A stretch of 64,000 bases of DNA from Elusimicrobia bacterium UBA6262 (GTDB taxonomy: Bacteria; CAYTYR01; UBA6262). The DNA is taken from NCBI GenBank assembly GCA_002441095.1, contig DJVG01000043.1, forward strand, positions 2,254 to 66,253. Reading direction: 5' to 3'. The position numbers were made by a program, and so were the translations under genes. Every line of letters begins with the position of its first letter. Position 1 is the stretch's first letter. The notes beneath the pieces are model-generated. The model ran no database searches. It was given only the letters and a program-made list of their open reading frames with translations, and was not told the DNA's origin. Positions 1,416 to 61,592 of this stretch are shown in pieces.

Positions 1416-1781
1416 TTATGATAAATATTTCTTCACTTCTGCCAGCAGGACTTCAGGCCGGAACGGTTTAATTACATAACTATTGGCCTTGGCTTTTTTA
1501 GCTTCGATCATAGCTTCCTTCTGGCTTTTCGCGCTCAATATTATTATCGGGATCTGACCGAGAGACGGATCATTTTTTATGCGGATACAAACCTGCAGAC
1601 CGTCTATTTTTGGCATCATTATATCCAGGATCAGCAAATCCGGCTTTTCCATGGCGGCCTTGGCTAAAGCTTCTTCCCCGTCAGCCGCGGTCATTACTTC
1701 ATAGCCACTGGCTTCTAAGCGCGATTTCACCAGCATTAGTAATTTTGGCTCATCATCAACCAATAATATTTTATTCCCCAC
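1416..1781 (-). CDS. single-domain response regulator (CheY-like receiver)
   Basis: ILLVDDEP...LLILDIMMP...ILSAK receiver motifs; the track ORF extends to 1904 but overlaps the upstream RR; GTG at 1779-1781 preceded by GGGAG gives a non-overlapping start (VGNKILLVDDE). Confidence 0.7.
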   Translation of the reverse strand: MGNKILLVDDEPKLLMLVKSRLEASGYEVMTAADGEEALAKAAMEKPDLLILDIMMPKIDGLQVCIRIKNDPSLGQIPIIILSAKSQKEAMIEAKKAKANSYVIKPFRPEVLLAEVKKYLS

Positions 1782-1804
1782 ACTTAACTCCCGGCTAAAT
1801 GATC

Positions 1805-2188
1805 CTATAGTTCGTTCTTCTTGCTTAGTTCTTTGACCATGCCCAGCAGTACTTCCGGTGAAAAAGGCTTCATGATCACATAATCCACCCCTAAAGACCG
1901 GCATTGTTCTTCCAGTTCCCGGACATTAGACGCAGTGAAAATAATGATCGGGATCTTGGCAAATTCAGGATCTGCTTTTAATTGTTTGGCTACTTCATAC
2001 CCATTGAGATCAGGCATGACAATATCCAACAGGATCAGGTCAGGCTTTTCCTCTTTTACCTTTTCCAGGGCCTGTACACCGCCATAAGCAGTGGCTACGC
2101 TGAAACCATTGGCTTCCAGCCTGGATTTTAAGAGGATCCGCACATGAGGTTCGTCATCCACTACCAGTATTTTTTTATTAGTGCTCAT
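1805..2188 (-). CDS. single-domain response regulator (CheY-like receiver)
   Basis: MSTNKKILVVDDEPHVR...DLILLDIVMP...FTAS...KP receiver signature; 4-nt ATGA overlap with upstream kinase gene. Confidence 0.85.
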   Translation of the reverse strand: MSTNKKILVVDDEPHVRILLKSRLEANGFSVATAYGGVQALEKVKEEKPDLILLDIVMPDLNGYEVAKQLKADPEFAKIPIIIFTASNVRELEEQCRSLGVDYVIMKPFSPEVLLGMVKELSKKNEL

Positions 2189-5100
2189 TTTGCCTCCTCT
2201 AATTTGCTCTTGGCCAACCGCAGCAGTTCTTCAGACTCATGGCCATCTTCAGGATATATGGCTATCGCCTGCGACAGGCTATCAACGGGAACTTGTTTTT
2301 TCCGGCAGTTCTCGATAATGCGCTGGCACAGGGAATTAGCTCCTGGCCGGGCAGACCTGACCAGGACGACAAGCAAGGTGCGCTCTTCAAACCGCACTAC
2401 CATGTCGTCTGCTCTCCTGACACTATATCTGGCTGCTGCTTCGACCCCATCAAGTATAGACATGGCCTGCAGAGCACCCTGGACCGGCTTGATCAAGATC
2501 AAAGCCAGGGACTCATACTCTTTCTTAGCTTTATCCAGCTGGTCCCTTAAGAGCTCATGGAAAACCGCATCAGCTGATAATTTCGGCAGGGTAAAAATAA
2601 ATTTACTGCCTTTTTCCAGTTCGCTCTCCACGCGGATAGTGCCGCCATGCATTTCCACCAGGCTCTTGCTGATCGACAAGCCCAGGCCTGTCCCGCGATA
2701 GCCCGGCCCTGCTGTCCGGTTGATCTGTTCGAACCGGTCAAATATTTTATGGAAGTTTTCAGCAGCGATCCCCCGGCCATGGTCCTCCACTGTTATTTCG
2801 ATCTCCGGGCCTTTGTCTACCAGGTAAACTTCCACTTTCCCTTTATCCTGCGAGAACTTGATAGCATTATCTATTAAATTACTGAGCACCTGTTTTATCC
2901 GGTCCTCATCAAGAAACAAAGAAAAGCCAGGCAGGCCCAGATGCATTTCCAAGGTGATCTGACGCTCCCGGCCCCTTATTTCCAGGTTGTTAACCACCGA
3001 CCTGATCACCGGTACTATATCATGTTCTGTCTTATTCAAAGTAACCTTGCCTGCCTCGATCTTGGAGACATCCAGCAGATCATTAATGATCCGGGTCAGG
3101 CGGTCAATTTCTTCCGTGGCAATATGCAGGAATTCTTTTTGGTCCGGGTTGAGCTCGCCTTTGATGCCTTCCAGGACCTGGGAAATAGATTCACGGATAC
3201 AGGTGATCGGGGTCCTCAATTCATGCGAAACAGTGGAAATAAATTCGCTTTTCAACCGTGCCGCTTCTTTCTCCCTGGTCACATCCCGGAAAGCCAGGGC
3301 CAATCCGATCATCTCATTCTCTGCCTTAAAAACAGGGGCAATATCAAAATGCAGGATCCGGCTGGGATTCTCACCTAATTTCACTTCTTTTTTGACAACC
3401 TTGCTTTTTTCCCATGATTCCACCAGGCTCAAGTCCAGCCCTACGCTAGTCAACATTTCCAGCACTTTGGCGTAATCTTTCTCATCCTTCTGGTATCCCA
3501 GCAAGTGCAGAGCCATATCATTGCTTACTGCGACCTGGCCGTTTTTATCCAGCATGATCACGCCTTCGTTCAACGATTCAACAAGAACCGAGATCTTTTC
3601 ATTCCACTCCTGGAGTTTGCCCTGCATGACTTGCATTTCCTGCCTGTTTTCCTCAAAATCTTCCAGCAAAGAAAGCATTACTTCCCTTGATTCTTTGGCT
3701 TCCTGCAACGCCTGCTCCAGATTCCTGGTTCTTTCCCGGATCTTATCTTCCAGAGTTACGCTGTAATGCTCCAGTGCATTCTTGGAATTATTAAGTTCTT
3801 CGATCATCTGCAGGTTTTCCCGCAAATCAGTCCCCACCAGGATCATGCCGTCAATTTCATTTTTCTTGTCCCGGACCATAGTGCAGGAAAGGCTGACCGG
3901 GATAGGGACCAGGGTCTTGGTGCGGTATTTCACGACCACATTACGGGTCGGATGCTTCTTAGTTTTAGCTATCAGATCAGCCAGTATCTCAACGCTATCC
4001 CCTTCCTGGAATAAAATTTCTACACTCTTATTATGGAGCTCTTCCCAGGTATAGCCAAGCAAGTTTAGCGTCACCTTGTTTACTTCCCGGATGGTCCCGT
4101 CATTATGCAATACCACTAATGAATCGCTCATACTGTTAATAATGTTCTCAAAAAATAGTTTCCGGTCAGTGATCTCCTGGTACGCAGTTTTCAGATCCGT
4201 GATCATCCAGTTAAAAGACTGGGCCAACTGTTCTATCTCATCACCAGTTTTGATATTAGACCGGACATTCAAGTCTCCGGTAGATACTTTTTGCATCGCT
4301 TTCTGCAATGAGGAAACGGAATCCACGATCCGCCGGCTGAAAAATATATTAAAAGGTATCAGGATCAGTAATAAGGCCGCAGCCAGGGCAAACTGCCGGG
4401 CGAACATCTGCCTGATCGGGGCAAAAGCTACTGCCGTTTCCTGGGATAGACAAACTATCCATTGCAGATCATTGTCCTGCAATATCTCATTTTTAACTAC
4501 GGCAACGGTAATGATTGCGCTATGATTATTAATATCCGAACCAATGATCCAGGGATTTTTACCTGAGACGATCAGCTCTTTTATATCCTGGCTGAATTTC
4601 AGGCCGGGCAGCTGCCTATGCAAATCCCTGATCAGGATATTGCCATCCTGGTCAGTCAAGACGGCAGTGCTCCCGGGGATATTGTTGAGCATTTCCATTT
4701 CTTCTAATTCATTCTTTATATTATACACTCCCTTGAGCACCCCGATAACATTATCAGCGGGCCCCACAATAGGAATGCAAAGCGGGATGGACCAGGCCTG
4801 GCTTGATTCATCAAATTCAATTTGACCTATATAAGGTTTCTCTTTGGTATAACTAATAGCTTTTTGCCACCATGTTTCATCAGCCTGGTAAAAGTCTGTT
4901 GTTTTTCCAGAGGCAGCCACCAATCCACCAAAGCGGTCGCTGATAAAAACCTCACCGATTTTTCCCATAATAGTATCATATCTTCGCAATTGGGCGGCGG
5001 CAGGAATATCTGTGTATTTTTTAACTAGCGGGGATTCCTGAGTAGCTGCCCGCCATTGCTGGTCCATGGTATCGAAATAGGCCTGCCGATCCGGGATAGT

Positions 5101-5364
5101 GCCGTACGAGGTATTAGCCTGCTGCAGCAAGGCTATAAAATTGGAGTTCTGGGCAACTTCTGTTAATATTGCTACTTCTTCCTTGATCTTCTTGGCTAGA
5201 TTACTGGCAATGACCTGTGCCCGGCCCTGTAAATTTTCAGTAATAGTTTGCTTACGGATAGTAGAAATAGAGTAATAGCTATAAAGACTGACGCCGACCA
5301 GGACCAGGCAAGTCAGAATTAAATTATTTACCAGTATTTTTTCCCTGAGACTGATCATTCTCAT
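2185..5364 (-). CDS. sensor histidine kinase with N-terminal TM + periplasmic Cache-like region, HAMP, PAS, HisKA (SHELRTPI) and HATPase_c (GTGLGLSISK) plus ~150-aa uncharacterised C-terminal domain
   Basis: 1059 aa; H-box FISTVSHELRTPITCI, N/G boxes DNAIKFS, DHGRGI, GTGLGLSI; two TM segments flanking ~280-aa extracytoplasmic region. Confidence 0.85.
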   Translation of the reverse strand: MRMISLREKILVNNLILTCLVLVGVSLYSYYSISTIRKQTITENLQGRAQVIASNLAKKIKEEVAILTEVAQNSNFIALLQQANTSYGTIPDRQAYFDTMDQQWRAATQESPLVKKYTDIPAAAQLRRYDTIMGKIGEVFISDRFGGLVAASGKTTDFYQADETWWQKAISYTKEKPYIGQIEFDESSQAWSIPLCIPIVGPADNVIGVLKGVYNIKNELEEMEMLNNIPGSTAVLTDQDGNILIRDLHRQLPGLKFSQDIKELIVSGKNPWIIGSDINNHSAIITVAVVKNEILQDNDLQWIVCLSQETAVAFAPIRQMFARQFALAAALLLILIPFNIFFSRRIVDSVSSLQKAMQKVSTGDLNVRSNIKTGDEIEQLAQSFNWMITDLKTAYQEITDRKLFFENIINSMSDSLVVLHNDGTIREVNKVTLNLLGYTWEELHNKSVEILFQEGDSVEILADLIAKTKKHPTRNVVVKYRTKTLVPIPVSLSCTMVRDKKNEIDGMILVGTDLRENLQMIEELNNSKNALEHYSVTLEDKIRERTRNLEQALQEAKESREVMLSLLEDFEENRQEMQVMQGKLQEWNEKISVLVESLNEGVIMLDKNGQVAVSNDMALHLLGYQKDEKDYAKVLEMLTSVGLDLSLVESWEKSKVVKKEVKLGENPSRILHFDIAPVFKAENEMIGLALAFRDVTREKEAARLKSEFISTVSHELRTPITCIRESISQVLEGIKGELNPDQKEFLHIATEEIDRLTRIINDLLDVSKIEAGKVTLNKTEHDIVPVIRSVVNNLEIRGRERQITLEMHLGLPGFSLFLDEDRIKQVLSNLIDNAIKFSQDKGKVEVYLVDKGPEIEITVEDHGRGIAAENFHKIFDRFEQINRTAGPGYRGTGLGLSISKSLVEMHGGTIRVESELEKGSKFIFTLPKLSADAVFHELLRDQLDKAKKEYESLALILIKPVQGALQAMSILDGVEAAARYSVRRADDMVVRFEERTLLVVLVRSARPGANSLCQRIIENCRKKQVPVDSLSQAIAIYPEDGHESEELLRLAKSKLEEAK

Positions 5365-6209
5365 ACAGTTTGGGTACCTTTGTTTTTAGCTAATTCCTCT
5401 TTCAGCTTATCAACCTGCTCTTTCAGCTCAATGACCCGTTTTTCCCGGTCCATAGTAACCCTGTGCAATAACTGCATTTCCTCTATTTTCTGGCTCAATT
5501 CTTTCCTGGACTTATCCAACTCCTCAATAATTTTCCCGGTCTTGGCAAACTCCCTGACCGCGCTGATAGTCCCGACAACCCGGCCTTTCTTGTCTTTCAC
5601 TGCCACTATATCAGCCAGCACCTGTCTTCCGGCGGGGTTGTGAAAGGATACTTCATTGATCATCCCCTGTATAAATACCTTTTCAAACTCGTGGGCAAAG
5701 ACCGGCCAGTCATCCAACGAGACGACATTCTTGATATCCTTGTGTAATATATTTTCCTGGTTTAAGCCGGTTTGCTCTAAGATCCGCTGGTTGCAAAACA
5801 AGATCTTCCCTTTAGCATCGGTCCGGATAATTCCTTCGGGTATCGTTTGCAGTAGGACATCAAGATCCTGCCTCTGTTGTTCAAGTTCATCATTAGTTGA
5901 CCGCAACTCCTCGTCTGTCGCCTGTAATTCCTGGTTAGTCGCCTGCAATTCCTGCCTGGCCGCCTCTGCTTTCAGGTGGGTGTTACGCAATTCCCGGATC
6001 AGCTCCTGATAATGCCGGGTGATCAGGCGTTGGAGAATGAGCAGTGAAATAAAAGCAACTAAAGTCACAAAAATAATAGTCACTATATGCGAAAGCCATA
6101 AATTGTCAATAACAAATACTTCAGTTTTTAAAAATTCAAAAACCACGGTTAATATAAATACAATCAGCGTATATGGCAGCACCAGCTGCCTGATCTTATT
6201 ATTGTCCAT
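5361..6209 (-). CDS. membrane-anchored PAS-domain protein with coiled-coil segments (QELQATNQELQATDEELRSTNDELE)
   Basis: 282 aa; two N-terminal TM helices, heptad-like ELQ repeats, PAS-like block, C-terminal TMDREKRVIELKEQVDKLKEEL motif shared with upstream 1300-aa protein. Confidence 0.55.
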   Translation of the reverse strand: MDNNKIRQLVLPYTLIVFILTVVFEFLKTEVFVIDNLWLSHIVTIIFVTLVAFISLLILQRLITRHYQELIRELRNTHLKAEAARQELQATNQELQATDEELRSTNDELEQQRQDLDVLLQTIPEGIIRTDAKGKILFCNQRILEQTGLNQENILHKDIKNVVSLDDWPVFAHEFEKVFIQGMINEVSFHNPAGRQVLADIVAVKDKKGRVVGTISAVREFAKTGKIIEELDKSRKELSQKIEEMQLLHRVTMDREKRVIELKEQVDKLKEELAKNKGTQTV

Positions 6210-9200
6210 GTGCGTTTTGCTCCAGGTCTTTCAGCTTTTTCTTCAGCTCGATGATCCGTTTTTCGCGTTCCATAGTCACCTTGTTGAACCGGTCCAGTTC
6301 ATTTATCCGCTTTTTTAACTCTTCCTCCGCCCGCTTGCGTTCGGTGATATCCTGGTTCACTCCATAAGTATTGACTGTTCTTCCTTGCTGGTCTTTGATA
6401 ATAAAATAACGAACGGAAATATAGCCAACCTCTCCATGAGAGTCAATTATACGGTGCTCTAGCTGGTGGCTAAAATTAGAATCAGTGGCTTCAATGGCTC
6501 GTCGGGTTTCCAAGCTGACCACTTCAGCATCTTCGGGATGAACAAAACGCTTTACATAATCAGCAGATGACATAGTATAGCCGCCAGCCTGCTCGGCAGT
6601 CGTGTGGAAGATAGCGTAAAAAGAATCCGTGAAGGTAAATACATCGTTTACCACATCATATTCCCAGGGTCCCAGGCGCGCCATATACGCAGCATTTAAT
6701 AACTGGGCTTCGCTCACCCGTAACGCTGCCTCAGCCTGTCTGCGCTCAGTAATATCTACGGCAAAGCCGACAATCCCAATGATCTCTCCCTTTTCATTTC
6801 TATAGGGTATTTTATCGGTCTGGACCCATTTCAGCCCTTCTTGCGTCTGCATTGATTCTACGATGTTTAGTCTTGGTTGTCCTGAATCCATCACTGCCTT
6901 ATCATCCTGCCAGTATTTCTCCGCCTCTTCTTTAGGATAAATATCAAACACCGACTTCCCTTCCAGCTGCTCTTTGGTCAAGCCCATACTTTTAGCCATA
7001 GCCTTGTTGACACGGATGAAATTATTATTCTTATCCTTATAAAAGATCATTGCTGGCGTAGAATCCAGGATAGTACTTAGTTCCTGCTGTTGTTGTAGCA
7101 GAGTCTCTTCGTATTTTTTTCGCTCAGTGATATCCTGATTAACGCCATAAGTTTTGATCGTCTTTCCTTGCTGGTCTTTGACAATAAAAAAACGCACCGA
7201 AATATAACCAATTTCCCCATTAGCATCAATTTTACGGTGCTCCAGCTGACGGCTAAAATTAGAATCAGTTGTTTCAATGGCTTTGCGAGTTTCTTCACCG
7301 ACCACCGCTGCATCTTCTGGATGGACAAAACGCTTTACGTAATCTGCCGCCGACATAGTATAGCCGCCGACTTGCTCGGCTGTTGTGTGAAAAACAGTGT
7401 AAAAAGAATCAGTAAAAGTAAAAATATCTTTCACCACATCATATTCCCAGGGTCCCAAGTGCGCAATATTCAAAGCATTGGATAGCTGATCTTCATTCTG
7501 CTGGAGTGCTACTTCGGCTTTTTTACGTTCGGAAATATCGTGGGAAAATACGAACATTTGATCTGAATCCCTGAGAATCGTTACGCTAATCACAATATCG
7601 ATAATAGTTCCGTCTTTGCATTTATGTTTAGTTTCAAAGCGGTCACTGCCATTTTCCATAATTTTATGAATACGGGCTTGTATCTCTGCTGGTTTCTCGT
7701 TTACTTCCAAGTCAGCGATTTTCATTTTTTGCAATTCTACCCGGCTATAACCGATCATTTTACAATAAGAATCATTTACTTCAATGATATTGCCTTGCAT
7801 ATCCGTCAGCCAGAAACCGTCTATAGAGGTCTCAATTATAGCTTTATATTTCTGTTCCTGTTTCTGGCATTCGGTAATATCAGTAACCACCCCGATCAGT
7901 CCGGCGATTGTGCCGTCAGGATTATTATAAGTGGCTTTATTAAAGATGACTAAACGACGGGTACCGTCTGCCTGTTGAATACTGGATTCATAGGCTTGGG
8001 TTCCGGGATGGCTTAGTAATTCCTCGTCTTTCTGGTGGTAGACATCAGCTAGATCCTTAGGCGCGAGTTCATAGACAGATTTACCAATGATTTTTTCCTT
8101 TGCTCTTCCCAAGAAACGCTCAAAAGCCTGGTTACACCCTTGATAGATCCCTTGCGCGTCTTTGTAGAATACCGGATTAGGAATAGCTTCAAGCAATTGC
8201 TGGATAAATGCCAATTGGTTTGTCATTGCGGTTTTGGCTTTTTCTATATCAGTGACATCTTCTACGATACCGATAAAACCGGTAGGCTGGTTTTGGGCAG
8301 AGACTATCATTTTGATCTGCGTATGCACCCAACGAGTCTCATTCTGCTTATTGAGGATCCTAAACTTCAAGGATTCTTCTTTGCCTTGGGGCAGCGGTCC
8401 GGTAATGATATTCAAGGCCTCTTCCTGCTCTTCAGGATGGATCAGCTTTCTCCAGCCTTGTCCCAGACATTCATCAAAAGTCATTCCGGAAAATGAAATA
8501 AGTTTTTTATTTACATAAACAACTTCCCCTTGCATATTTAAAAAGAAAATGCCAACTGGAGCCAGATCACTTAAATTACGGAATTTTGCTTCACTCTCGT
8601 GCAAGACATTTTCTATTTTTTTGCGCTCGGTGATATCCCGGGCAAAACTTAAAATAAATTTTTCCCCGGCAAGCTCAACTATGCTGCTATTGATCTCTAC
8701 CGGGATAAGCTGCCCTTCCTTGGTCATATGTTCTGATTCAAAAAGGGCCTTGCCTTCTTTTAAGATTTTAGCCATTCTTTCCGGTACTAAAGCCGCATTT
8801 TGAGGAGAATCTATTTTTGTTGGTCCCAAGGTTAAAAGTTCGGTGCGGGTATAATGCAGCATTTGGCAAGCGCTCTGGTTAATATCTATAAACTGGGGAT
8901 TAACAGGATCCAAAGTAAGGAGATATATGGCTTCAGATGAACCTTCGATCAGGGAGCGGGATTTCTGCTCTGACTGCACCAGCCTCTGCCGCGCTTTTTC
9001 TTCCTCTGTCACATCACGGAAAATAGCCGCGACTTTATCGCCTACCGGATAAATAACATTATGCATATACTGGTCGTGTTGCGCGTCCTGGTAATGAACC
9101 AGCGGAATGATCTTTGACTCCCCTGACTGGGAACATTCCACGATAGCTTTATAGACCTCGGTTTTTTCCATTGCCGGGAAAAACTTTTTAATATCCTGGC

Positions 9201-10101
9201 CCAGCACCTCTTGCCGTAAAAGATTGTACATTTTCTCAGCCGCCCGGTTCCAATCGGCGACGATCATTTCTTGGCCTTCATCTTTTACTTCATAGAGGGC
9301 GAACCCGTCAGTCATGGCATCAAAAACAGACCGGTATTGCTCCTCATAATCAACCAACTCCTGATTAGCTGATTTCAGGGACAGCCAGACGCCCAGGGTA
9401 CTGGCCACAGCTTCCAATATATTTTGTTCATCCGGCTGCTTAAATGGTTTGTTTTCAGTATAATACATGGTCAGTTCGCCGGCTTCATGCCCGTTGATAT
9501 ATAATGGTGCAGTCAAGCCATATTCAAGATCATCGCTATATTTATCCGTGCTGAAAGTTTCATCCTCAATAGCAATGAGCGGGACAGCCAGCTGGGGATA
9601 GGTCATGGCTGCGACCAGCGCTTCCAGGACAAAATGGATAGTATACTCTATGGAGTCGTTATCCTGCAGTTTCCTGGTGATCAGGGATAAGCTGTTCAAT
9701 TGGCGCAAATGAGCTTGCTGGAGTTGTTCCTGTTCTTTTTGGCTGGTCAGATCACGGCAGAGGATTAATATTTTAGTCTGGGTTTTATTGGCATCAGCCA
9801 ATAACATCGGGGTCAGGGCTACCGGGAAAATACTGCCATTCTTACGTACATATTCCTGCTCGATATTGGGGGCGTTATGCTGTACCAGGGCAGCTTCCTG
9901 GATAGCCTGGCTTTCTTGCTGGTGCCATTTAGCCGGCGTCAGGTCACGATGGGTCTTCTGGATTATTTCGTCCAGGGTATATCCCAGCATGGACAGAGCC
10001 GCTGGATTAGCCTGTATGATCCGGCCACGCAGGTCAAGCTCCAGCAGTCCATCATGTATGGTTTCGGAGATAAGTTTATAGATCTCTTTTTCGTCAACCA
10101 T
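6199..10101 (-). CDS. large cytoplasmic multi-PAS/PAC sensor protein (>=8 PAS-like repeats) with no recognisable output domain
   Basis: 1300 aa; repeated PAS/PAC blocks each ending ...DITERKKAE/ DVTEEEKAR/ DITERRQAE; no H-box, GGDEF, EAL or HTH visible; C-terminus coiled-coil TMEREKRIIELKKKLKDLEQ. Confidence 0.7.
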   Translation of the reverse strand: MVDEKEIYKLISETIHDGLLELDLRGRIIQANPAALSMLGYTLDEIIQKTHRDLTPAKWHQQESQAIQEAALVQHNAPNIEQEYVRKNGSIFPVALTPMLLADANKTQTKILILCRDLTSQKEQEQLQQAHLRQLNSLSLITRKLQDNDSIEYTIHFVLEALVAAMTYPQLAVPLIAIEDETFSTDKYSDDLEYGLTAPLYINGHEAGELTMYYTENKPFKQPDEQNILEAVASTLGVWLSLKSANQELVDYEEQYRSVFDAMTDGFALYEVKDEGQEMIVADWNRAAEKMYNLLRQEVLGQDIKKFFPAMEKTEVYKAIVECSQSGESKIIPLVHYQDAQHDQYMHNVIYPVGDKVAAIFRDVTEEEKARQRLVQSEQKSRSLIEGSSEAIYLLTLDPVNPQFIDINQSACQMLHYTRTELLTLGPTKIDSPQNAALVPERMAKILKEGKALFESEHMTKEGQLIPVEINSSIVELAGEKFILSFARDITERKKIENVLHESEAKFRNLSDLAPVGIFFLNMQGEVVYVNKKLISFSGMTFDECLGQGWRKLIHPEEQEEALNIITGPLPQGKEESLKFRILNKQNETRWVHTQIKMIVSAQNQPTGFIGIVEDVTDIEKAKTAMTNQLAFIQQLLEAIPNPVFYKDAQGIYQGCNQAFERFLGRAKEKIIGKSVYELAPKDLADVYHQKDEELLSHPGTQAYESSIQQADGTRRLVIFNKATYNNPDGTIAGLIGVVTDITECQKQEQKYKAIIETSIDGFWLTDMQGNIIEVNDSYCKMIGYSRVELQKMKIADLEVNEKPAEIQARIHKIMENGSDRFETKHKCKDGTIIDIVISVTILRDSDQMFVFSHDISERKKAEVALQQNEDQLSNALNIAHLGPWEYDVVKDIFTFTDSFYTVFHTTAEQVGGYTMSAADYVKRFVHPEDAAVVGEETRKAIETTDSNFSRQLEHRKIDANGEIGYISVRFFIVKDQQGKTIKTYGVNQDITERKKYEETLLQQQQELSTILDSTPAMIFYKDKNNNFIRVNKAMAKSMGLTKEQLEGKSVFDIYPKEEAEKYWQDDKAVMDSGQPRLNIVESMQTQEGLKWVQTDKIPYRNEKGEIIGIVGFAVDITERRQAEAALRVSEAQLLNAAYMARLGPWEYDVVNDVFTFTDSFYAIFHTTAEQAGGYTMSSADYVKRFVHPEDAEVVSLETRRAIEATDSNFSHQLEHRIIDSHGEVGYISVRYFIIKDQQGRTVNTYGVNQDITERKRAEEELKKRINELDRFNKVTMEREKRIIELKKKLKDLEQNAHGQ
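6330..6710. repeat. intragenic PAS-domain repeat copy A' (~85% nt identity to 7120-7490)
   Basis: protein LGPWEYDVVNDVFTFTDSFYAIFHTTAEQAGGYTMSSADYVKRFVHPEDAEVV... vs ...LGPWEYDVVKDIFTFTDSFYTVFHTTAEQVGGYTMSAADYVKRFVHPEDAAVV...; DNA aligned by eye. Confidence 0.85.
7120..7490. repeat. intragenic PAS-domain repeat copy A (partner of 6330-6710)
   Basis: see 6330-6710; ~790-bp spacing, a different PAS domain between the copies. Confidence 0.85.
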
Positions 10102-10219
10102 TAAGCACCCTACGCTAAAAGTAATTCCAAATTACAAATTTCAAATGACAAATTAAGGAATTCTGTGTGATCTCTGTTCTAATCTGTGTAATCTCTTTTT
10201 CTAATCGGTGTAATCATGT
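10102..10219. repeat. intergenic array of CTGTGTAATC / GGTGTAATC motifs (GATTACACAG family) ending in TAATCGGTGTAATCAT
   Basis: tctgtgtgatctctgttctaatctgtgtaatctctttttctaatcggtgtaatcat; identical 16-mer taatcggtgtaatcat recurs at ~20008. Confidence 0.6.
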
Positions 10220-57038: not shown

Positions 57039-60000
57039 TTATCCGTCATAAGACTGTTCTAAGTCCAGCTTATCTGCTTTTTTCTTGGATTCCAGTATCT
57101 TCTTGTATTCCAGCGGCATGACCTTGATGAATTTCCCGCGCTGGCCCTCAAAATCAGCCAGTACTTTTTGCGCGTATTCACTGCCAGTGTATTTTTTGTG
57201 GTTTTCCAGCAGGTTTTTTATTATGCCCGCATCATCTTCATTAACAATATCCAATTCCACCATATCCTGGTTGCACCTGGCTGGGAAATTACCGTCTTCA
57301 TCAAGTATATAGGCTACGCCGCCGCTCATGCCAGCCGCGAAATTGCGCCCGGTACTGCCCAGGACCACGATCCTGCCACCGGTCATGTATTCACAACCAT
57401 GGTCGCCTACACCTTCCACTACCGCGTTTAATCCGGAATTCCTGATACAGAATCTTTCCCCAGCCCGGCCGCAAATATAAGCTTCCCCGGTGATGGCTCC
57501 GTAAAAAGTAGTATTTCCGATTATAATATTCTCTTCCGGCCGGTAATCTGATTTCCGGTCAGGATAAATTATTATCTTCCCGCCGGAGATGCCTTTACCG
57601 ACATAGTCATTAGCCAGTCCTTCCAGCTCGAAAGTCACGCCTCTGGCCAGCCACGCACCGAAACTCTGCCCAGCCATGCCCTTGAATTTAAAATTAATAG
57701 AATCTTCCGGCAAGCCAGCTTCGCCATATTTTTTACAAACTTCGCCGCTCAACATGGCGCCGGTCGTGCGATTGGTATTTTTGATTGTGAGCTCTACTTT
57801 GATCGGTTCCTTTTTTTCCAGCGCTGGTTTGGCCAGGACGATCAATTGCCGGTCCAGCACCTTATCTATATTATGGTTTTGTTTAATGATCTGGTGTGTT
57901 TCAATATTTATATTGGCCTTCGGCTGGTATAACATCCGGGAATAATCCAGACCTTTGGTTTTCCAGTCTAGCATATCCTTGTTCAGCTCCAGCAGGTCTG
58001 TCCGGCCGACCATATCTTCCAAGGTAGGAGTGCCTAATCCTGCCATGATCTCCCGCAGTTCTTCGGCTACTAAACGGAAATAATTCACCAGGTATTCTGG
58101 TTTACCGCGGAACCGTTTGCGCAACTCTTCATCCTGGGTGCAAACCCCGACCGAGCAATTATTCAAATGGCAATGCCTCAGCATCACGCAGCCTAATACA
58201 ACCAGGGCAGCAGTGCCGAACCCGAATTCTTCGGCTCCGAGCATTGCGGCTATGGCCAGGTCCCGTCCGGTGCGCATTTGTCCGTCAGCCTGCAGGCGGA
58301 CCCGGCTCCTCAGGTCATTGAGCACCAGGGTCTGGTGCGTTTCTGATAATCCCAGCTCCCAGGGCAGGCCGGCATGCTTGACCGAGCTCAACGGTGACGC
58401 TCCGGTGCCGCCATCCCCGCCGGAGATCAGGATCATGTCAGCATGGCCCTTGGCCACGCCCGCGGCTACGGTCCCTACGCCGATCTCTGATACCAGCTTG
58501 ACGCTGACGCGCGCTGTAGGATTAGTATTTTTCAGGTCGAAGATCAACTGGGCCAGGTCTTCGATAGAATAAATGTCATGATGCGGCGGCGGTGAGATCA
58601 GCGTTACGCCCGGAGTAGTGTAACGGGTTTTGGCGATCGTCACGCTTACCTTATGACCGGGTAACTGTCCGCCTTCACCTGGTTTCGCGCCTTGGGATAT
58701 CTTTATCTGCAATTCATCGGCATTGACCAGGTAATTGGTAGTTACACCGAAACGGCCGGATGCGACTTGTTTAATAGCGCTGCGCACCGAATCCCCGTTC
58801 GGTAATGGCGCGAACCTGGCTGGATCCTCTCCACCCTCTCCGGTATTGGACTTACCGCCTAAACGGTTCATGGCCATAGCCATGGTTTCATGAGTTTCCT
58901 TACTGATCGAGCCGAAGCTCATAGCTCCGGTCACAAAATGTTTGACCAGGTTTTCTATTGGTTCTACTTTATCCAAAGAAATCGGCTTGGCCTTTTTTAA
59001 TTTCAGCAAACTGCGCAAAGTGGTCGGATGTCCCGATTGGTCATTGATCAGACCGGCGAATTCTTTATACTTCCCGTAATCCCCGTTGCGCGTAGCATCC
59101 TGCAGAGCGGCAATGCTTTCAGGATTCCACAAATGGTATTCCCCGTCCCTTTTCCACTGGTATAACCCGCCGGTGATCAAATACGGGGTCTTGAATTCAT
59201 CGCGCAAAGGATAGGCCTGCTGATGGCGCAAAATGGTTTCCCGGGCCAGGATTTTCATATCCGCTCCGCCGATGCGGGAAACAGTGCCGGCAAAACATCT
59301 CTCGATCACGTCGTCAGCCAAACCAAGAGCTTCATAGATCTGGGCGCCGCGGTAGCTTTGCAAAGTGGAAATACCCATTTTCGAAAGCACTTTTTTAATG
59401 CCCTTGTTAATAGCTTTAATATAATTATCGACTGCCTTGTCCAGTCGGAGATGCACTTCCCCTTCCAGGATCAGGTGCTCGATAGCTTCATACGCCAGGT
59501 AAGGATTAACAACTCCCGCGCCAAAAGCCAGCAAGAGAGTGAAGTGATTCACTTCCCTGGGTTCCGCGCTTTCTACAATTATGGCGATCTGCGCGCGCAA
59601 TCCTTTTTTTACCAGGTATTGGTGGACTGCCCCGGTAGCCAGCAGGGCTGGCAACGCGGCTTGTTTCCGGCTGGTGCCCCGGTCGCTCAAAATAATAAAA
59701 GTAAACCCTTCGCTGATCGCTTCCCGCGCATCGGCGCAGATACGGTCGAGAGCTTTCAGGAATTCTTTTTCATCTTCTGCTTCGTTCCCATTGACCGGGA
59801 ACAGGATCGAGATCCGCTTGGCGCGGAATCCGGGCTCTTTAATAGAATGTATCCGGGTCAGCTCATCGTTAGTAATGACTGGCAGCGGTACCCTGAGCTT
59901 GCGGCAATTTTGCGGTACTTCTTCCATTAAATTCTTTCGCGGGCCCATAAAGCTTTCCAGGCTCATGACCAGTTCTTCCCGGATCGGGTCGATCGGCGGA

Positions 60001-61592
60001 TTGGTCACCTGGGCGAACAGCATACGGAAATAAGTATAAGGTAATTGCGGTTTTTTGCTTAATACCGCGTGCGGCGTGTCATTGCCCATGGAACCGACTG
60101 GTTCCTGGCCATTCTCCACCATCGGCTTGATAATAGTTTTCAGGTCTTCCCGGCTATAGCCGAACGCCTTCATATCAGTCAGTATATCTGTTGATCTTAA
60201 ATAAGCACTCTTGTCCAAAGGCATCATCACTGCTTCCGGCAAGCTGTCCAGTTCCAGCATATTATCTTTGATCCATTCGCCGTACGGGTTGCGGCTGGAC
60301 ATCTGCTCTTTCAATTCCCGGTCGTCGATGATCCTCCCCGCTTCGGTATCGATAAAGAACATCTTCCCTGGTTCAAGTCTTCCTGAATACAAAATATCCT
60401 GCGGCGGGATATCCAATACTCCCACTTCAGAGGCCATGACCACCAGGTCTTTCTTGGTCACCAGATACCGCGCCGGCCGCAAGCCATTGCGGTCCAGCAC
60501 CGCGCCGATCTGCCTGCCGTCGGTGAAAGCAATAGCTGCCGGTCCGTCCCAGGGCTCCATCAGGCAGGTATGGTACATGTAGAAATCTTTTAACTGCTGG
60601 TCCATCAGGTCATTGTGTTCCCAGACCGACGGGATCAGCATGGTCATAGAATGGGCTAAAGACCGGCCCGCCAAAACCATTAATTCGAAAACATTATCAA
60701 TAGACGCGGAATCACTGCCATCAGGTACGATAGTAGGCATGATCTTTTTCAGGTCCTCACCGAATAATTTGCTTTTCAGCAACCCTTCCTTGGCCCGCAT
60801 CCAGTTGATATTGCCCCGCAGGGTATTGATCTCGCCATTATGCGCCAGGAAACGGAACGGCTGCGCCAGGTCCCAGGCCGGGAAAGTATTTGTACTGTAG
60901 CGTGAATGCACCAGGCTGATCGCGCTGTGCAAAGCCGGATCTTTCAGGTCAACAAAATATTCTGCGACCTGTTCCGGCATCAGGAGACCTTTATAGGAAA
61001 AAGTCCGGTTGGACAAATTAGTAATATAGAAAAAAGATTTCTGTTGCAGGGGAGACTCACGGATAGCATTTTCAACCAGTTTGCGGATAATATAGAGTTT
61101 TCTTTCGAGATAAAGACTGTCTTGTCCGGCTTTAGCGCTGGCAGTGCCGACAAATACTTGTTCGATCATTGGCTCAGTTTCTCGGGCAGTCTTGCCAATG
61201 ACCGAGTTATCTACCGGTACCGGACGCCAGCCCAGTATTTCGCATTTTTCATTTTTGACGATCGCGGCGAATTTCTTTTTGCAGTATTCCCTCTCTTTAG
61301 CATCTGTTGGCAAAAACACCAGGCCAGTGCCATACTTCCCGGCAGCAGGCAAATTGAAGCCGGCTGTGCGGCAAACCTGGCTGAAAAACTCATGCGGTAT
61401 CTGGATCAATATGCCGGCTCCGTCACCGGTCTTGGGGTCAGATCCCGTAGCACCGCGGTGAGCCAGCCGGTTAAGAACTTCTAATCCTTGCCTGACTATT
61501 TCATTGGAGCGCTGGCCCTTGATATTACAGACAAAGCCAACTCCGCAGGAATCATGTTCATATCGCGGATCGTACAACCCTTGAGGTTTCAT
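57039..61592 (-). CDS. gltB: glutamate synthase large subunit
   Basis: 1517 aa; N-terminal ...EHDSCGVGFV amidotransferase Cys, FMN and 3Fe-4S regions. Confidence 0.9.
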   Translation of the reverse strand: MKPQGLYDPRYEHDSCGVGFVCNIKGQRSNEIVRQGLEVLNRLAHRGATGSDPKTGDGAGILIQIPHEFFSQVCRTAGFNLPAAGKYGTGLVFLPTDAKEREYCKKKFAAIVKNEKCEILGWRPVPVDNSVIGKTARETEPMIEQVFVGTASAKAGQDSLYLERKLYIIRKLVENAIRESPLQQKSFFYITNLSNRTFSYKGLLMPEQVAEYFVDLKDPALHSAISLVHSRYSTNTFPAWDLAQPFRFLAHNGEINTLRGNINWMRAKEGLLKSKLFGEDLKKIMPTIVPDGSDSASIDNVFELMVLAGRSLAHSMTMLIPSVWEHNDLMDQQLKDFYMYHTCLMEPWDGPAAIAFTDGRQIGAVLDRNGLRPARYLVTKKDLVVMASEVGVLDIPPQDILYSGRLEPGKMFFIDTEAGRIIDDRELKEQMSSRNPYGEWIKDNMLELDSLPEAVMMPLDKSAYLRSTDILTDMKAFGYSREDLKTIIKPMVENGQEPVGSMGNDTPHAVLSKKPQLPYTYFRMLFAQVTNPPIDPIREELVMSLESFMGPRKNLMEEVPQNCRKLRVPLPVITNDELTRIHSIKEPGFRAKRISILFPVNGNEAEDEKEFLKALDRICADAREAISEGFTFIILSDRGTSRKQAALPALLATGAVHQYLVKKGLRAQIAIIVESAEPREVNHFTLLLAFGAGVVNPYLAYEAIEHLILEGEVHLRLDKAVDNYIKAINKGIKKVLSKMGISTLQSYRGAQIYEALGLADDVIERCFAGTVSRIGGADMKILARETILRHQQAYPLRDEFKTPYLITGGLYQWKRDGEYHLWNPESIAALQDATRNGDYGKYKEFAGLINDQSGHPTTLRSLLKLKKAKPISLDKVEPIENLVKHFVTGAMSFGSISKETHETMAMAMNRLGGKSNTGEGGEDPARFAPLPNGDSVRSAIKQVASGRFGVTTNYLVNADELQIKISQGAKPGEGGQLPGHKVSVTIAKTRYTTPGVTLISPPPHHDIYSIEDLAQLIFDLKNTNPTARVSVKLVSEIGVGTVAAGVAKGHADMILISGGDGGTGASPLSSVKHAGLPWELGLSETHQTLVLNDLRSRVRLQADGQMRTGRDLAIAAMLGAEEFGFGTAALVVLGCVMLRHCHLNNCSVGVCTQDEELRKRFRGKPEYLVNYFRLVAEELREIMAGLGTPTLEDMVGRTDLLELNKDMLDWKTKGLDYSRMLYQPKANINIETHQIIKQNHNIDKVLDRQLIVLAKPALEKKEPIKVELTIKNTNRTTGAMLSGEVCKKYGEAGLPEDSINFKFKGMAGQSFGAWLARGVTFELEGLANDYVGKGISGGKIIIYPDRKSDYRPEENIIIGNTTFYGAITGEAYICGRAGERFCIRNSGLNAVVEGVGDHGCEYMTGGRIVVLGSTGRNFAAGMSGGVAYILDEDGNFPARCNQDMVELDIVNEDDAGIIKNLLENHKKYTGSEYAQKVLADFEGQRGKFIKVMPLEYKKILESKKKADKLDLEQSYDG

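What the first reader, a model, noticed from the sequence alone, without database searches (positions are those of the whole stretch)
6330..7490. Recent tandem-like duplication of a PAS domain inside a 1300-aa sensor gene
Two ~370-bp segments, 6330-6710 and 7120-7490, are about 85% identical at the DNA level. They encode PAS domains that are about 80% identical at the protein level (LGPWEYDV…DSNFS(R/H)QLEHR…GVNQDITERK). A different PAS domain lies between them. This identity is far higher than among the other PAS repeats in the same protein. It implies a recent intragenic duplication or gene conversion, and the segments are a possible substrate for recombination or assembly artefacts.
Basis: seen in the sequence. 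Interest (0 to 1): 0.55.

Follow-up and report, generated by a model that had tools for sequence, protein, structure and literature searches.

The report
Old PAS-module duplicate in multi-PAS sensor
Two copies of one PAS sensor module really do sit in this 1300-residue signalling protein, but they are an old duplicate kept by selection, in a gene whose PAS modules are routinely gained, lost and swapped between related bacteria, so the finding is ordinary.

Summary
The repeat is real. Inside the minus-strand gene 6199-10101, two complete PAS modules lie exactly 783 nt (261 codons) apart and in frame: J1 at 7111-7530 and J2 at 6328-6747. A different PAS module, E, lies between them. Identity is 77-80% at DNA level, not 85%, and 76-80% at protein level. 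All other PAS pairs in the protein share at most 32% of residues.

The duplication is not recent. Synonymous sites are close to saturation (pS 0.56, dS about 1.0) and dN/dS is about 0.1. The longest identical run is 25 nt and there is no gene-conversion tract. J1 and J2 are as far from each other as each is from the single J module of an orthologue in another species, giving an unresolved three-way split. They are more diverged than the genome is from its nearest sampled relative.

Ten syntenic orthologues (Omnitrophota-like MAGs) share a constant N-terminus and a constant C-terminal tail, but each carries a different set of PAS modules between them, and divergence along the gene is mosaic. 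The J-type PAS subfamily is widespread, highly conserved and often present in several copies per protein.

An assembly artefact is unlikely, but reads could not be checked.

Verdict: an ordinary, old, selectively maintained module duplication in a modular PAS array. It is a new member of a known kind and of low to moderate interest.

The parts
6199..10101 (-). Gene for a 1300-aa cytoplasmic multi-PAS protein with no output domain. It has nine PAS modules plus a GAF-like segment (aa 120-365).
   Evidence: ORF. Only PAS families are matched, with no HisKA, HATPase, GGDEF or other output domain. The exact protein is on MEGAHIT contig k141_852239.
7111..7530 (-). J1: the upstream copy of the duplicated J-type PAS module (aa 858-997: N-cap helix, PAS core, DITERK).
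   Evidence: PAS_3 30.8 bits, above the 25.6 cut-off.
6748..7110 (-). E: an unrelated PAS_4-type module between the two J copies (aa 998-1118).
   Evidence: It shares 20-24% aa identity with J1 and J2. It is present in 6 of the 9 orthologues.
6328..6747 (-). J2: the downstream copy of the J-type PAS module (aa 1119-1258).
   Evidence: PAS_3 34 bits. The AF2 model of its core has pLDDT 95.5 and a canonical PAS fold.
6199..6327 (-). D: the constant C-terminal coiled-coil tail (…RFNKVTMEREKRIIELKKKLKDLEQ…) plus the stop codon.
   Evidence: It is conserved in all 8 complete orthologues. It matches no Pfam family. It resembles the C-terminus of the next protein.
7531..8628 (-). F, G and H: the three other PAS modules of the variable middle (aa 492-857).
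   Evidence: Module clustering. Their presence and order differ between orthologues.
8629..10101 (-). Constant N-terminal region A-B-C (aa 1-491), shared by all ten orthologues.
5361..6209 (-). The next gene: a 282-aa protein with two TM helices, a coiled coil, one PAS domain and the same kind of tail. Its start overlaps the multi-PAS stop by 11 nt.
   Evidence: It is syntenic in all loci that are long enough.
2185..5364 (-). dCache-HAMP-PAS-HisKA-HATPase sensor kinase (1059 aa), overlapping the previous gene by 4 nt. It is the likely output partner.
1416..2188 (-). Two single-domain response regulators (127 and 121 aa) that end the signalling operon.
   Evidence: Gene calls of L001, converted to window coordinates.

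Best explanation
What it is. The two segments are paralogous copies (J1, J2) of one complete PAS sensor module, consisting of an N-terminal cap helix plus the PAS core up to the DITERK motif. They sit inside an output-less multi-PAS protein of an Omnitrophota-like bacterium.

Origin and age. One copy arose from the other, or both from a common J module of this gene lineage, by an in-frame whole-module event with both ends in the short inter-PAS linkers. This happened about as long ago as the sampled species of the clade split. Both copies have since been kept under strong purifying selection, so both are probably functional sensors or dimerisation units.

Context. The event is one instance of a general behaviour of this gene. 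Its N-terminal 491 residues and its 47-residue tail are constant. The PAS modules between them are gained, lost, reordered and exchanged between lineages, always as whole modules.

Shown:
- the repeat, its register and its module boundaries;
- the synonymous saturation and low dN/dS;
- the three-way split with the orthologous J;
- the variable architectures at a syntenic locus;
- the mosaic divergence along the gene.

Inferred:
- Module turnover is tolerated because PAS arrays are strung on helical linkers, so a whole module can be inserted or removed without breaking the rest.
- The conserved DITERK-coding linkers give microhomology for such events.
- The protein signals by contact with the neighbouring TM-PAS protein and histidine kinase.
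For: The repeat and its frame:
- establish the repeat, the 783-nt offset and the reading frame.

Age:
- J1-J2: pS 0.56-0.57, dS 1.02-1.08, dN 0.10-0.13, with differences by codon position of 15/10/44.
- WIN-P0002 orthologues: GlnN dS 0.86, ATPase 0.86, HK 1.09, constant region 0.76.
- WIN-P0003, the nearest relative: GlnN dS 0.45, ATPase 0.55.

Three-way split:
- nt identities are J1-J2 0.78, J1-J(P0002) 0.80 and J2-J(P0002) 0.77.
- The three form a clade in 100% of bootstraps against outside J-type domains. The inner order is unresolved at 59/33/8%.
- Lineage-unique sites number 35/49/36.

No conversion tract.

Module turnover:
- Architectures are WIN F-G-H-J-E-J; P0002 J-E-K-H-I; P0004 F-G-E-I; P0005/6 M-E-L-K-H-I; P0007 F-G-N-O; P0008 F-G-P; P0009 M-E-Q; P0010 H'-R-S. 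All have the same A-B-C head, and every complete one the same D tail.
- All sit at the same syntenic locus: GlnN | multi-PAS | TM-PAS | HK | RR.
- J occurs only in WIN (2 copies) and P0002 (1 copy).

Mosaicism:
- WIN-P0003 pS is 0.34-0.41 for ATPase, GlnN, A and B, but 0.58-0.64 from module C onward.
- WIN's module C is closest to P0004 and P0009, not to P0003.
- P0005/P0006 and P0007/P0008 show discordance of the same kind.

The subfamily and its linkers:
- J-type domains are conserved and often multi-copy elsewhere. They share 62-68% identity with unrelated MAG proteins.
- 1891 cluster representatives match at E<1e-30.
- Several J-type copies sit in one protein in every one of the seven high-scoring proteins examined, at 64-94% identity between the closest copies. 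In P0151 the closest pair is separated by a different PAS domain.
- Another multi-PAS protein ends in J plus the same tail.
- The linker DNA encoding DITERK is 73-91% alike at five module ends.
- Repeated and shuffled PAS domains in sensor kinases are described in PMC1630713.
Against: - The order of the three J copies is unresolved. It cannot be told whether J2 was copied from J1 inside this gene, or came in by recombination from a diverged allele or an unsampled paralogue.
- dS near 1 on about 135 codons has wide error bars.
- Only ten orthologues exist in the collections searched, only one other carries J, and the closest relative (P0003) is cut by a contig end.
- No reads were available, so the J1-E-J2 order rests on one short-read assembly.
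- The functional statements (both copies active, signalling by protein contact) are inferred, not tested.
Confidence: 0.8

Rival explanations
1. Recent intragenic duplication or ongoing gene conversion. The copies are young or are being homogenised, which would explain about 80% identity.
For: J1 and J2 are by far the most similar PAS pair in the protein: 76-80% aa, against at most 32% for the others. They share an exact in-frame register.
Against: Synonymous sites are nearly saturated (pS 0.56, dS about 1.0) and 44 of 69 core differences are at third codon positions. Divergence equals or exceeds that between different species at flanking genes. The longest identical run, 25 nt, is not unusual (P=0.085). 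J1 is no closer to J2 than to the J of P0002.
Confidence: 0.05
2. Cassette import. J2, or J1 together with H, was not copied inside this gene. It entered by recombination with a diverged allele or a paralogous multi-PAS gene carrying a J module, with joins at linker microhomology.
For: Mosaic divergence and discordant nearest neighbours along the gene. The nearest relative, P0003, has F-G-E with no J before E. J followed directly by the tail exists in another organism's multi-PAS protein. J2 carries slightly more unique changes than J1 (49 against 35).
Against: J1, J2 and J(P0002) form an exclusive clade (100% bootstrap), so any donor must belong to the same narrow gene lineage. No donor was found in the window or in any fetched locus. 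The excess of J2-unique sites is not significant.
Confidence: 0.3
3. Assembly artefact. The second J copy, or the J-E-J order, was produced by misassembly of a metagenome holding related strains.
For: The contig comes from a short-read metagenome assembly (MEGAHIT k141). The 100% identical protein is on record only from that assembly and its deposited copy.
Against: The copies share no exact stretch longer than 25 nt, so they share no k-mer near the final k of 141 that could link them in the assembly graph. The reading frame is intact over 1300 codons. Differences follow a coding pattern with dN/dS about 0.1. The J|E junction is confirmed in two independent assemblies of the orthologue, and a J|tail junction exists elsewhere.
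Confidence: 0.04

Closest known systems
Domain shuffling and repeated PAS domains in sensor histidine kinases (Alm et al. 2006, PMC1630713)
   Same: Arrays of PAS modules are reshuffled while another part of the protein stays constant. Repeated PAS domains of one sequence subfamily occur within a protein.
   Different: That work describes paralogues from lineage-specific expansions. Here the variation is between positional orthologues at one syntenic locus, the constant parts are the N-terminus and a short tail, and the protein has no kinase domain.
Uncharacterised proteins with several J-type PAS copies (P0145, P0146, P0151, P0155, P0164, P0169)
   Same: They carry the same PAS subfamily (WEYD…FTFND…TTAE..GGY…HPDD…EHR…NQDITERK) in 2-6 copies per protein. 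Intra-protein identity reaches 64-94%. In P0151 the closest pair of copies is separated by a different PAS domain, as in J-E-J.
   Different: Those proteins also carry GAF domains, and at least P0146, P0155 and P0169 carry a kinase domain, and they come from other lineages. Identity to J2 is only about 40-60%.
Pfam PAS_3 (PF08447) / PAS fold
   Same: J1 and J2 pass the PAS_3 gathering score (30.8 and 34 bits against 25.6). The model is a canonical PAS fold (TM about 0.8 to 3mr0, 3h9w and the Brucella LOV-HK PAS domain).
   Different: Only profile positions 25-89 are matched, so the N-terminal third is subfamily-specific. No solved structure is closer than 22% identity. No cofactor or ligand can be inferred.
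Multi-PAS regulators held together by helical PAS extensions, e.g. PpsR (PMC3949515)
   Same: Several PAS domains in series are joined by alpha-helical linkers or N-caps. This is a plausible basis for tolerating whole-module insertions (abstract seen; the rest is inference).
   Different: PpsR has three PAS domains and a DNA-binding output. This protein has nine and only a coiled-coil tail.

Membership tests
PAS domain (PAS_3 subfamily) | Sequence match above the curated Pfam threshold | tested here: met
   J1 scores 30.8 bits and J2 34.0 bits against a cut-off of 25.6. Only the C-terminal two-thirds of the profile is matched.
PAS domain (PAS_3 subfamily) | Five-stranded antiparallel sheet flanked by helices | tested here: met
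   The AF2 model has pLDDT 95.5 and element order E-E-H-H-H-H-E-E-E. Foldseek gives TM 0.76-0.80 to solved PAS domains.
Recent tandem duplication | Copies lie head to tail with nothing between them | tested here: not met
   A 121-126-aa unrelated PAS module (E) lies between the copies. Similarity at offset 783 ends at the J module borders.
Recent tandem duplication | Low synonymous divergence, well below that between related species | tested here: not met
   dS is about 1.0 between the copies, against 0.45-0.55 to the nearest relative and 0.86 to the next one.
Gene conversion / concerted evolution | Copies in one genome are closer to each other than to the orthologous copy in another genome | tested here: not met
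   nt identity is J1-J2 0.78 against J1-J(P0002) 0.80. Bootstrap support for J1+J2 is 33%.
Gene conversion / concerted evolution | Identical tract longer than expected from the overall divergence | tested here: not met
   The longest run is 25 nt against a permutation mean of 18.4 (sd 4.2), P=0.085.
Sensor histidine kinase | HisKA/DHp and HATPase_c domains | tested here: not met
   Pfam and NCBIfam find only PAS models in the 1300-aa protein. The kinase is a separate gene two positions downstream.
Assembly repeat artefact | Copies share exact sequence at least as long as the assembler's k-mer | tested here: not met
   The longest shared exact run is 25 nt, and the contig is named k141.
Assembly repeat artefact | Read coverage or pairing anomalies at the junctions | not testable with these tools
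   No reads are available.
Modular PAS-array turnover between orthologues | Same syntenic locus and constant termini, with different whole-module content | tested here: met
   Ten orthologues show eight distinct middle architectures. The A-B-C head is shared by all ten and the D tail by all nine complete proteins. Flanking genes are conserved wherever the contig reaches them.

The most novel reading that the evidence does not exclude
This reading treats the locus as a recombination-driven sensor cassette array. Whole PAS modules would be duplicated, deleted and exchanged between Omnitrophota lineages at the conserved DITERK-coding linkers, between a fixed N-terminal head and a fixed coiled-coil tail. 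The input repertoire of one conserved two-component operon would then be re-tuned between species far faster than the rest of the genome changes. The J-type PAS subfamily would be especially prone to such amplification. The data show the variable architectures and the mosaic divergence. They do not show the mechanism, the rate, or any adaptive value.
Probability: 0.35. Interest if true: 0.5.

Novelty: new member of a known kind. Interest (0 to 1): 0.27.

Why it matters
On its own the duplicate matters little. PAS domains are often repeated in bacterial sensors, and this pair is old and stable.

Its use is as a worked example of a caution: high protein identity between repeats can reflect constraint rather than youth. 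Here 80% protein identity goes with synonymous sites that are almost saturated.

The wider pattern may interest people who study how sensory inputs evolve. One conserved operon carries a multi-PAS protein whose module content differs in nearly every sampled species and whose sequence is mosaic. The J-type PAS subfamily is large and strongly conserved, often occurs in several copies per protein, and has no solved structure closer than 22% identity or any ligand that could be inferred here. That makes it a reasonable target for structural or ligand work.

Tried and rejected
- Scans of genome contigs and metagenome contigs with the constant N-terminal 491 aa added no new orthologues. The three real genome hits were contigs already known (P0003, P0008, P0009), and the rest were distant 30% matches.
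- The word-indexed protein search with J2 alone scored only 47 candidates and returned 24 short proteins, most or all of them fragments. It did not return the window protein itself, so it could not be used for copy counts. The exhaustive representative search was used instead. Its list is ranked by summed score and therefore favours proteins with several copies, so no frequency of multi-copy proteins can be taken from it.
- The tail motif matched no Pfam family even at E up to 10.
- The sequence search of the PDB gave only generic PAS hits (E about 0.002). The fold search gave only generic PAS, LOV and FixL folds at 22% identity or less, so no cofactor could be inferred.
- Two literature searches found general work on PAS arrays and domain shuffling, but nothing on this subfamily or on module turnover between positional orthologues.
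- The idea that a J-E or E-J unit was duplicated as a whole was considered. Similarity at offset 783 drops to background (20-33% nt) outside the J module on both sides, so no trace of a longer unit remains.
- Programmed variation (a reverse transcriptase or invertase nearby) was considered. None appears among the called genes around the locus. No dedicated search was made.
- One search was an empty helper script.
Full report
**1. The observation**

The region lies inside a 1300-codon ORF on the minus strand, 6199-10101. A self-comparison of the gene at every offset finds one diagonal that stands out. At offset 783 nt the best 150-nt window is 84% identical, and no other offset exceeds 51%. The repeat finder independently reports 6335-6634 against 7118-7417 at 80% over 300 nt.

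The offset is 261 codons, so the copies are in frame. In register, the PAS core (aa 881-996 and 1142-1257) is 80.2% identical in both nucleotides and residues. The whole module, including the helix that precedes the core (aa 858-997 and 1119-1258; window 7111-7530 and 6328-6747), is 77% and 76% identical.

Similarity falls to background (20-33% nt) immediately upstream of the linker before each copy and immediately after the DITERK motif that ends each copy. A different PAS module lies between the copies. All other PAS pairs in the protein share 12-32% of residues.

DNA identity is about 80% rather than 85%, and each copy extends some 35-40 nt further on its N-terminal side.

**2. The duplication is not recent**

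- Of the 69 differences in the core, 44 are at third codon positions.
- By Nei-Gojobori counting, pS is 0.56-0.57 (dS about 1.0-1.1), dN is 0.10-0.13 and dN/dS is 0.09-0.13.
- The longest identical run is 25 nt. Permuting the mismatches within codon positions gives a mean longest run of 18.4 (sd 4.2) and P=0.085, so there is no sign of a conversion tract.

For calibration I fetched the orthologous loci.

| Comparison | Gene or region | Synonymous divergence |
|---|---|---|
| WIN vs P0002 | GlnN | dS 0.86 |
| WIN vs P0002 | P-type ATPase | dS 0.86 |
| WIN vs P0002 | kinase | dS 1.09 |
| WIN vs P0002 | constant part of the PAS gene | dS 0.76 |
| WIN vs P0003 (nearest relative) | GlnN | dS 0.45, pS 0.34 [0.29-0.38] |
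| WIN vs P0003 (nearest relative) | ATPase | dS 0.55 |
| J1 vs J2 | J module | pS 0.56 [0.44-0.67] |

The J1-J2 value lies above the divergence from the nearest relative and level with the divergence from a different species.

**3. Relation to the orthologous J**

Among ten orthologues, only the window (two copies) and P0002 (one copy, also followed by E) carry a J module.

- Nucleotide identities are J1-J2 0.78, J1-J(P0002) 0.80 and J2-J(P0002) 0.77.
- Sites unique to J1, J2 and J(P0002) number 35, 49 and 36.
- With J-type domains from unrelated organisms as outgroups, the three form a clade in 100% of bootstraps. Their internal order is unresolved at 59/33/8%.

The split of J1 from J2 is therefore about as old as the split of these species. 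Whether J2 was copied from J1 inside the gene, or was brought in from a diverged allele, cannot be decided with the present sample.

**4. Why the protein identity is so high**

J belongs to a distinct, strongly constrained PAS subfamily.

- Proteins from unrelated MAGs share 62-68% identity with J2 over the whole module, including the N-cap helix.
- An exhaustive search of 1.84 billion cluster representatives gives 1891 proteins at E<1e-30.
- J1 and J2 pass the Pfam PAS_3 threshold only narrowly, and only over the C-terminal two-thirds of the profile.
- The AlphaFold model of the J2 core is confident (pLDDT 95.5) and is a canonical PAS fold.
- The nearest solved structures are structural-genomics PAS domains and the PAS domain of Brucella LOV-HK, at 22% identity or less.
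- No cofactor or ligand can be inferred.

**5. Several copies per protein are common in this subfamily**

About forty representatives score above 300 bits, more than a single J-type domain is expected to give. For scale, P0002, with one J at 77% identity, scores 259 bits. All seven of the high-scoring proteins that I examined hold 2-6 J-type copies:

| Protein | J-type copies | Highest intra-protein identity | Note |
|---|---|---|---|
| P0145 | 6 | 94% | |
| P0146 | 5 | 91% | |
| P0151 | 3 | 82% | the closest pair is separated by a different PAS domain, as here |
| P0164 | 2 | 72% | |
| P0169 | 2 | 64% | |

The window's J-E-J is therefore one more case of a common pattern.

**6. What the gene is**

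The protein matches PAS models along almost its whole length and has no kinase, cyclase or DNA-binding domain. It is the first gene of a conserved cluster:

- the multi-PAS protein;
- a 282-aa protein with two TM helices and one PAS domain, whose start overlaps the multi-PAS stop by 11 nt;
- a dCache-HAMP-PAS-HisKA-HATPase kinase, overlapping the previous gene by 4 nt;
- two single-domain response regulators.

Glutamine synthetase III lies upstream. The same order is found in every orthologous contig long enough to show it.

The nearest named relatives of the GlnN protein are Candidatus Omnitrophota (72-73% identity). Closer MAGs are labelled only 'bacterium' or 'Elusimicrobia bacterium'.

**7. 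The wider pattern: a variable PAS array**

I cut the ten orthologues at the DIT motifs and clustered the pieces. This gives a constant head A-B-C (aa 1-491), a constant 47-aa tail D, and a middle that differs in nearly every species:

| Orthologue | Middle modules |
|---|---|
| WIN | F-G-H-J-E-J |
| P0002 | J-E-K-H-I |
| P0003 | F-G-E-L… (cut by contig end) |
| P0004 | F-G-E-I |
| P0005, P0006 | M-E-L-K-H-I |
| P0007 | F-G-N-O |
| P0008 | F-G-P |
| P0009 | M-E-Q |
| P0010 | H'-R-S |

Junctions always fall within a few residues after DIT(E)RK. The DNA encoding that motif is 73-91% alike at five module ends in the window gene.

Divergence along the gene is mosaic:

- Between WIN and P0003, pS is 0.34-0.41 for ATPase, GlnN, A and B, but 0.58-0.64 for C, F, G and E. 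Sliding-window identity drops from about 0.89 to about 0.75 near residue 300-330.
- WIN's module C is closest to P0004 and P0009 rather than to P0003.
- P0005 and P0006 are 77% identical in the head but 82-91% in the middle modules and tail.
- P0007 and P0008 show the reverse pattern.

This indicates exchange of parts of the gene between lineages in addition to module gain and loss. A second multi-PAS protein from another metagenome also ends in J followed by the same kind of tail.

**8. How it probably works**

Shown: both J copies are under purifying selection, and whole modules are the unit of change.

Inferred from general knowledge of PAS arrays (helical extensions mediate multi-PAS assembly, as in PpsR, PMC3949515):
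- A module made of N-cap helix plus PAS core can be inserted or removed at the linker without disturbing its neighbours.
- The protein, having no output domain, most likely modulates the adjacent kinase by protein contact.
- The tail may take part in that contact. It is 43% identical (74% similar, E=1e-8) to the C-terminus of the neighbouring 282-aa protein and matches no Pfam family.

Why two near-identical sensors are kept is unknown. Possibilities are two binding sites for one signal, a pairing surface, or slight divergence in specificity. The 21 substitutions in the core are spread over strands, helices and loops with no obvious cluster.

**9. Artefact and recombination risk**

The contig is a MEGAHIT k141 contig from a metagenome. 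With no shared exact stretch above 25 nt, the two copies share no k-mer near the final k of 141 that could link them in the assembly graph. The intact frame and the coding pattern of the differences also argue against a chimera. The J|E junction is seen in two independent assemblies of the orthologue. Reads could not be examined.

For the cell, 20% divergence and runs of at most 25 nt make RecA-type recombination between the copies inefficient; this rests on my own knowledge and was not tested. If it did occur, it would delete 261 codons in frame.

**10. Comparison with what is known, and verdict**

Repeated PAS domains and shuffling of sensory domains in bacterial signalling proteins are established (Alm et al. 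2006, PMC1630713). This case differs in two ways: the shuffling is between positional orthologues, and the protein has no kinase domain. It is still the same kind of process.

The finding is a real, old, selectively maintained module duplicate. The 'recent duplication or gene conversion' reading is not supported. Interest is low to moderate. The variable, mosaic PAS array and the uncharacterised J-type subfamily are the parts worth a note.

Noticed in passing
window 10123-10215 (intergenic, upstream of the multi-PAS gene on the minus strand): Direct repeats are present: a 22-nt unit x2.5 (GATTAGAA.AGAGATYACACA) and a 7/14-nt unit x4.7 (AATTTGTMATTTGRAATT). Similar GATTACMCAGATT and AATTTGTCATTTGAAATTTG motifs lie upstream of several orthologues. 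They may be regulator binding sites.
   Followed up: partly
window 6199-6327 and 5403-5528 (minus strand): The C-terminal coiled-coil tail of the 1300-aa protein (RFNKVTMEREKRIIELKKKLKDL) resembles the C-terminus of the adjacent 282-aa TM-PAS protein (43% identity, 74% similarity, E=1e-8). It matches no Pfam family. The same tail follows a J-type PAS at the end of a protein in L017.
   Followed up: partly
window about 9100-9200 (aa about 300-330 of the multi-PAS gene), compared with L009: There is a divergence breakpoint against the nearest relative, P0003. Sliding-window identity is about 0.89 upstream and about 0.75 downstream, and pS rises from 0.34-0.41 to 0.58-0.64. WIN's module C is closest to P0004 and P0009 instead. 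This indicates a recombinant, mosaic gene.
   Followed up: partly
L004 vs L015, and L016 vs L006 (orthologous multi-PAS genes): P0005 and P0006 are 77% nt identical in the constant head but 82-91% in the middle modules and tail. P0007 and P0008 are 86% in the head but 67-76% in modules F and G. This is further mosaicism in the same gene family.
   Followed up: partly
P0145, P0146, P0147, P0151, P0155, P0164, P0169 (proteins): The J-type PAS subfamily occurs in 2-6 copies per protein in unrelated lineages, with up to 94% identity between copies in one protein. Amplification looks like a general property of the subfamily.
   Followed up: partly
window 5919-5965 (inside the 282-aa gene, minus strand): A 21-nt tandem repeat x2.2 encodes the heptad-like coiled coil ELQATNQELQATDEELRSTNDEL.
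   Followed up: no
window 2185-2454 (C-terminal about 90 aa of the 1059-aa kinase): There is a weak, partial GGDEF match just under the threshold (22.3 bits against 23.8, profile positions 58-155 of 161) after the HATPase domain. It may be a degenerate cyclase remnant.
   Followed up: no
window 1-64000: All 27 ORFs of at least 300 aa are on the minus strand, and GC skew is negative throughout. No tRNA genes were found. A 1517-aa ORF at 57039-61592 was not examined.
   Followed up: no
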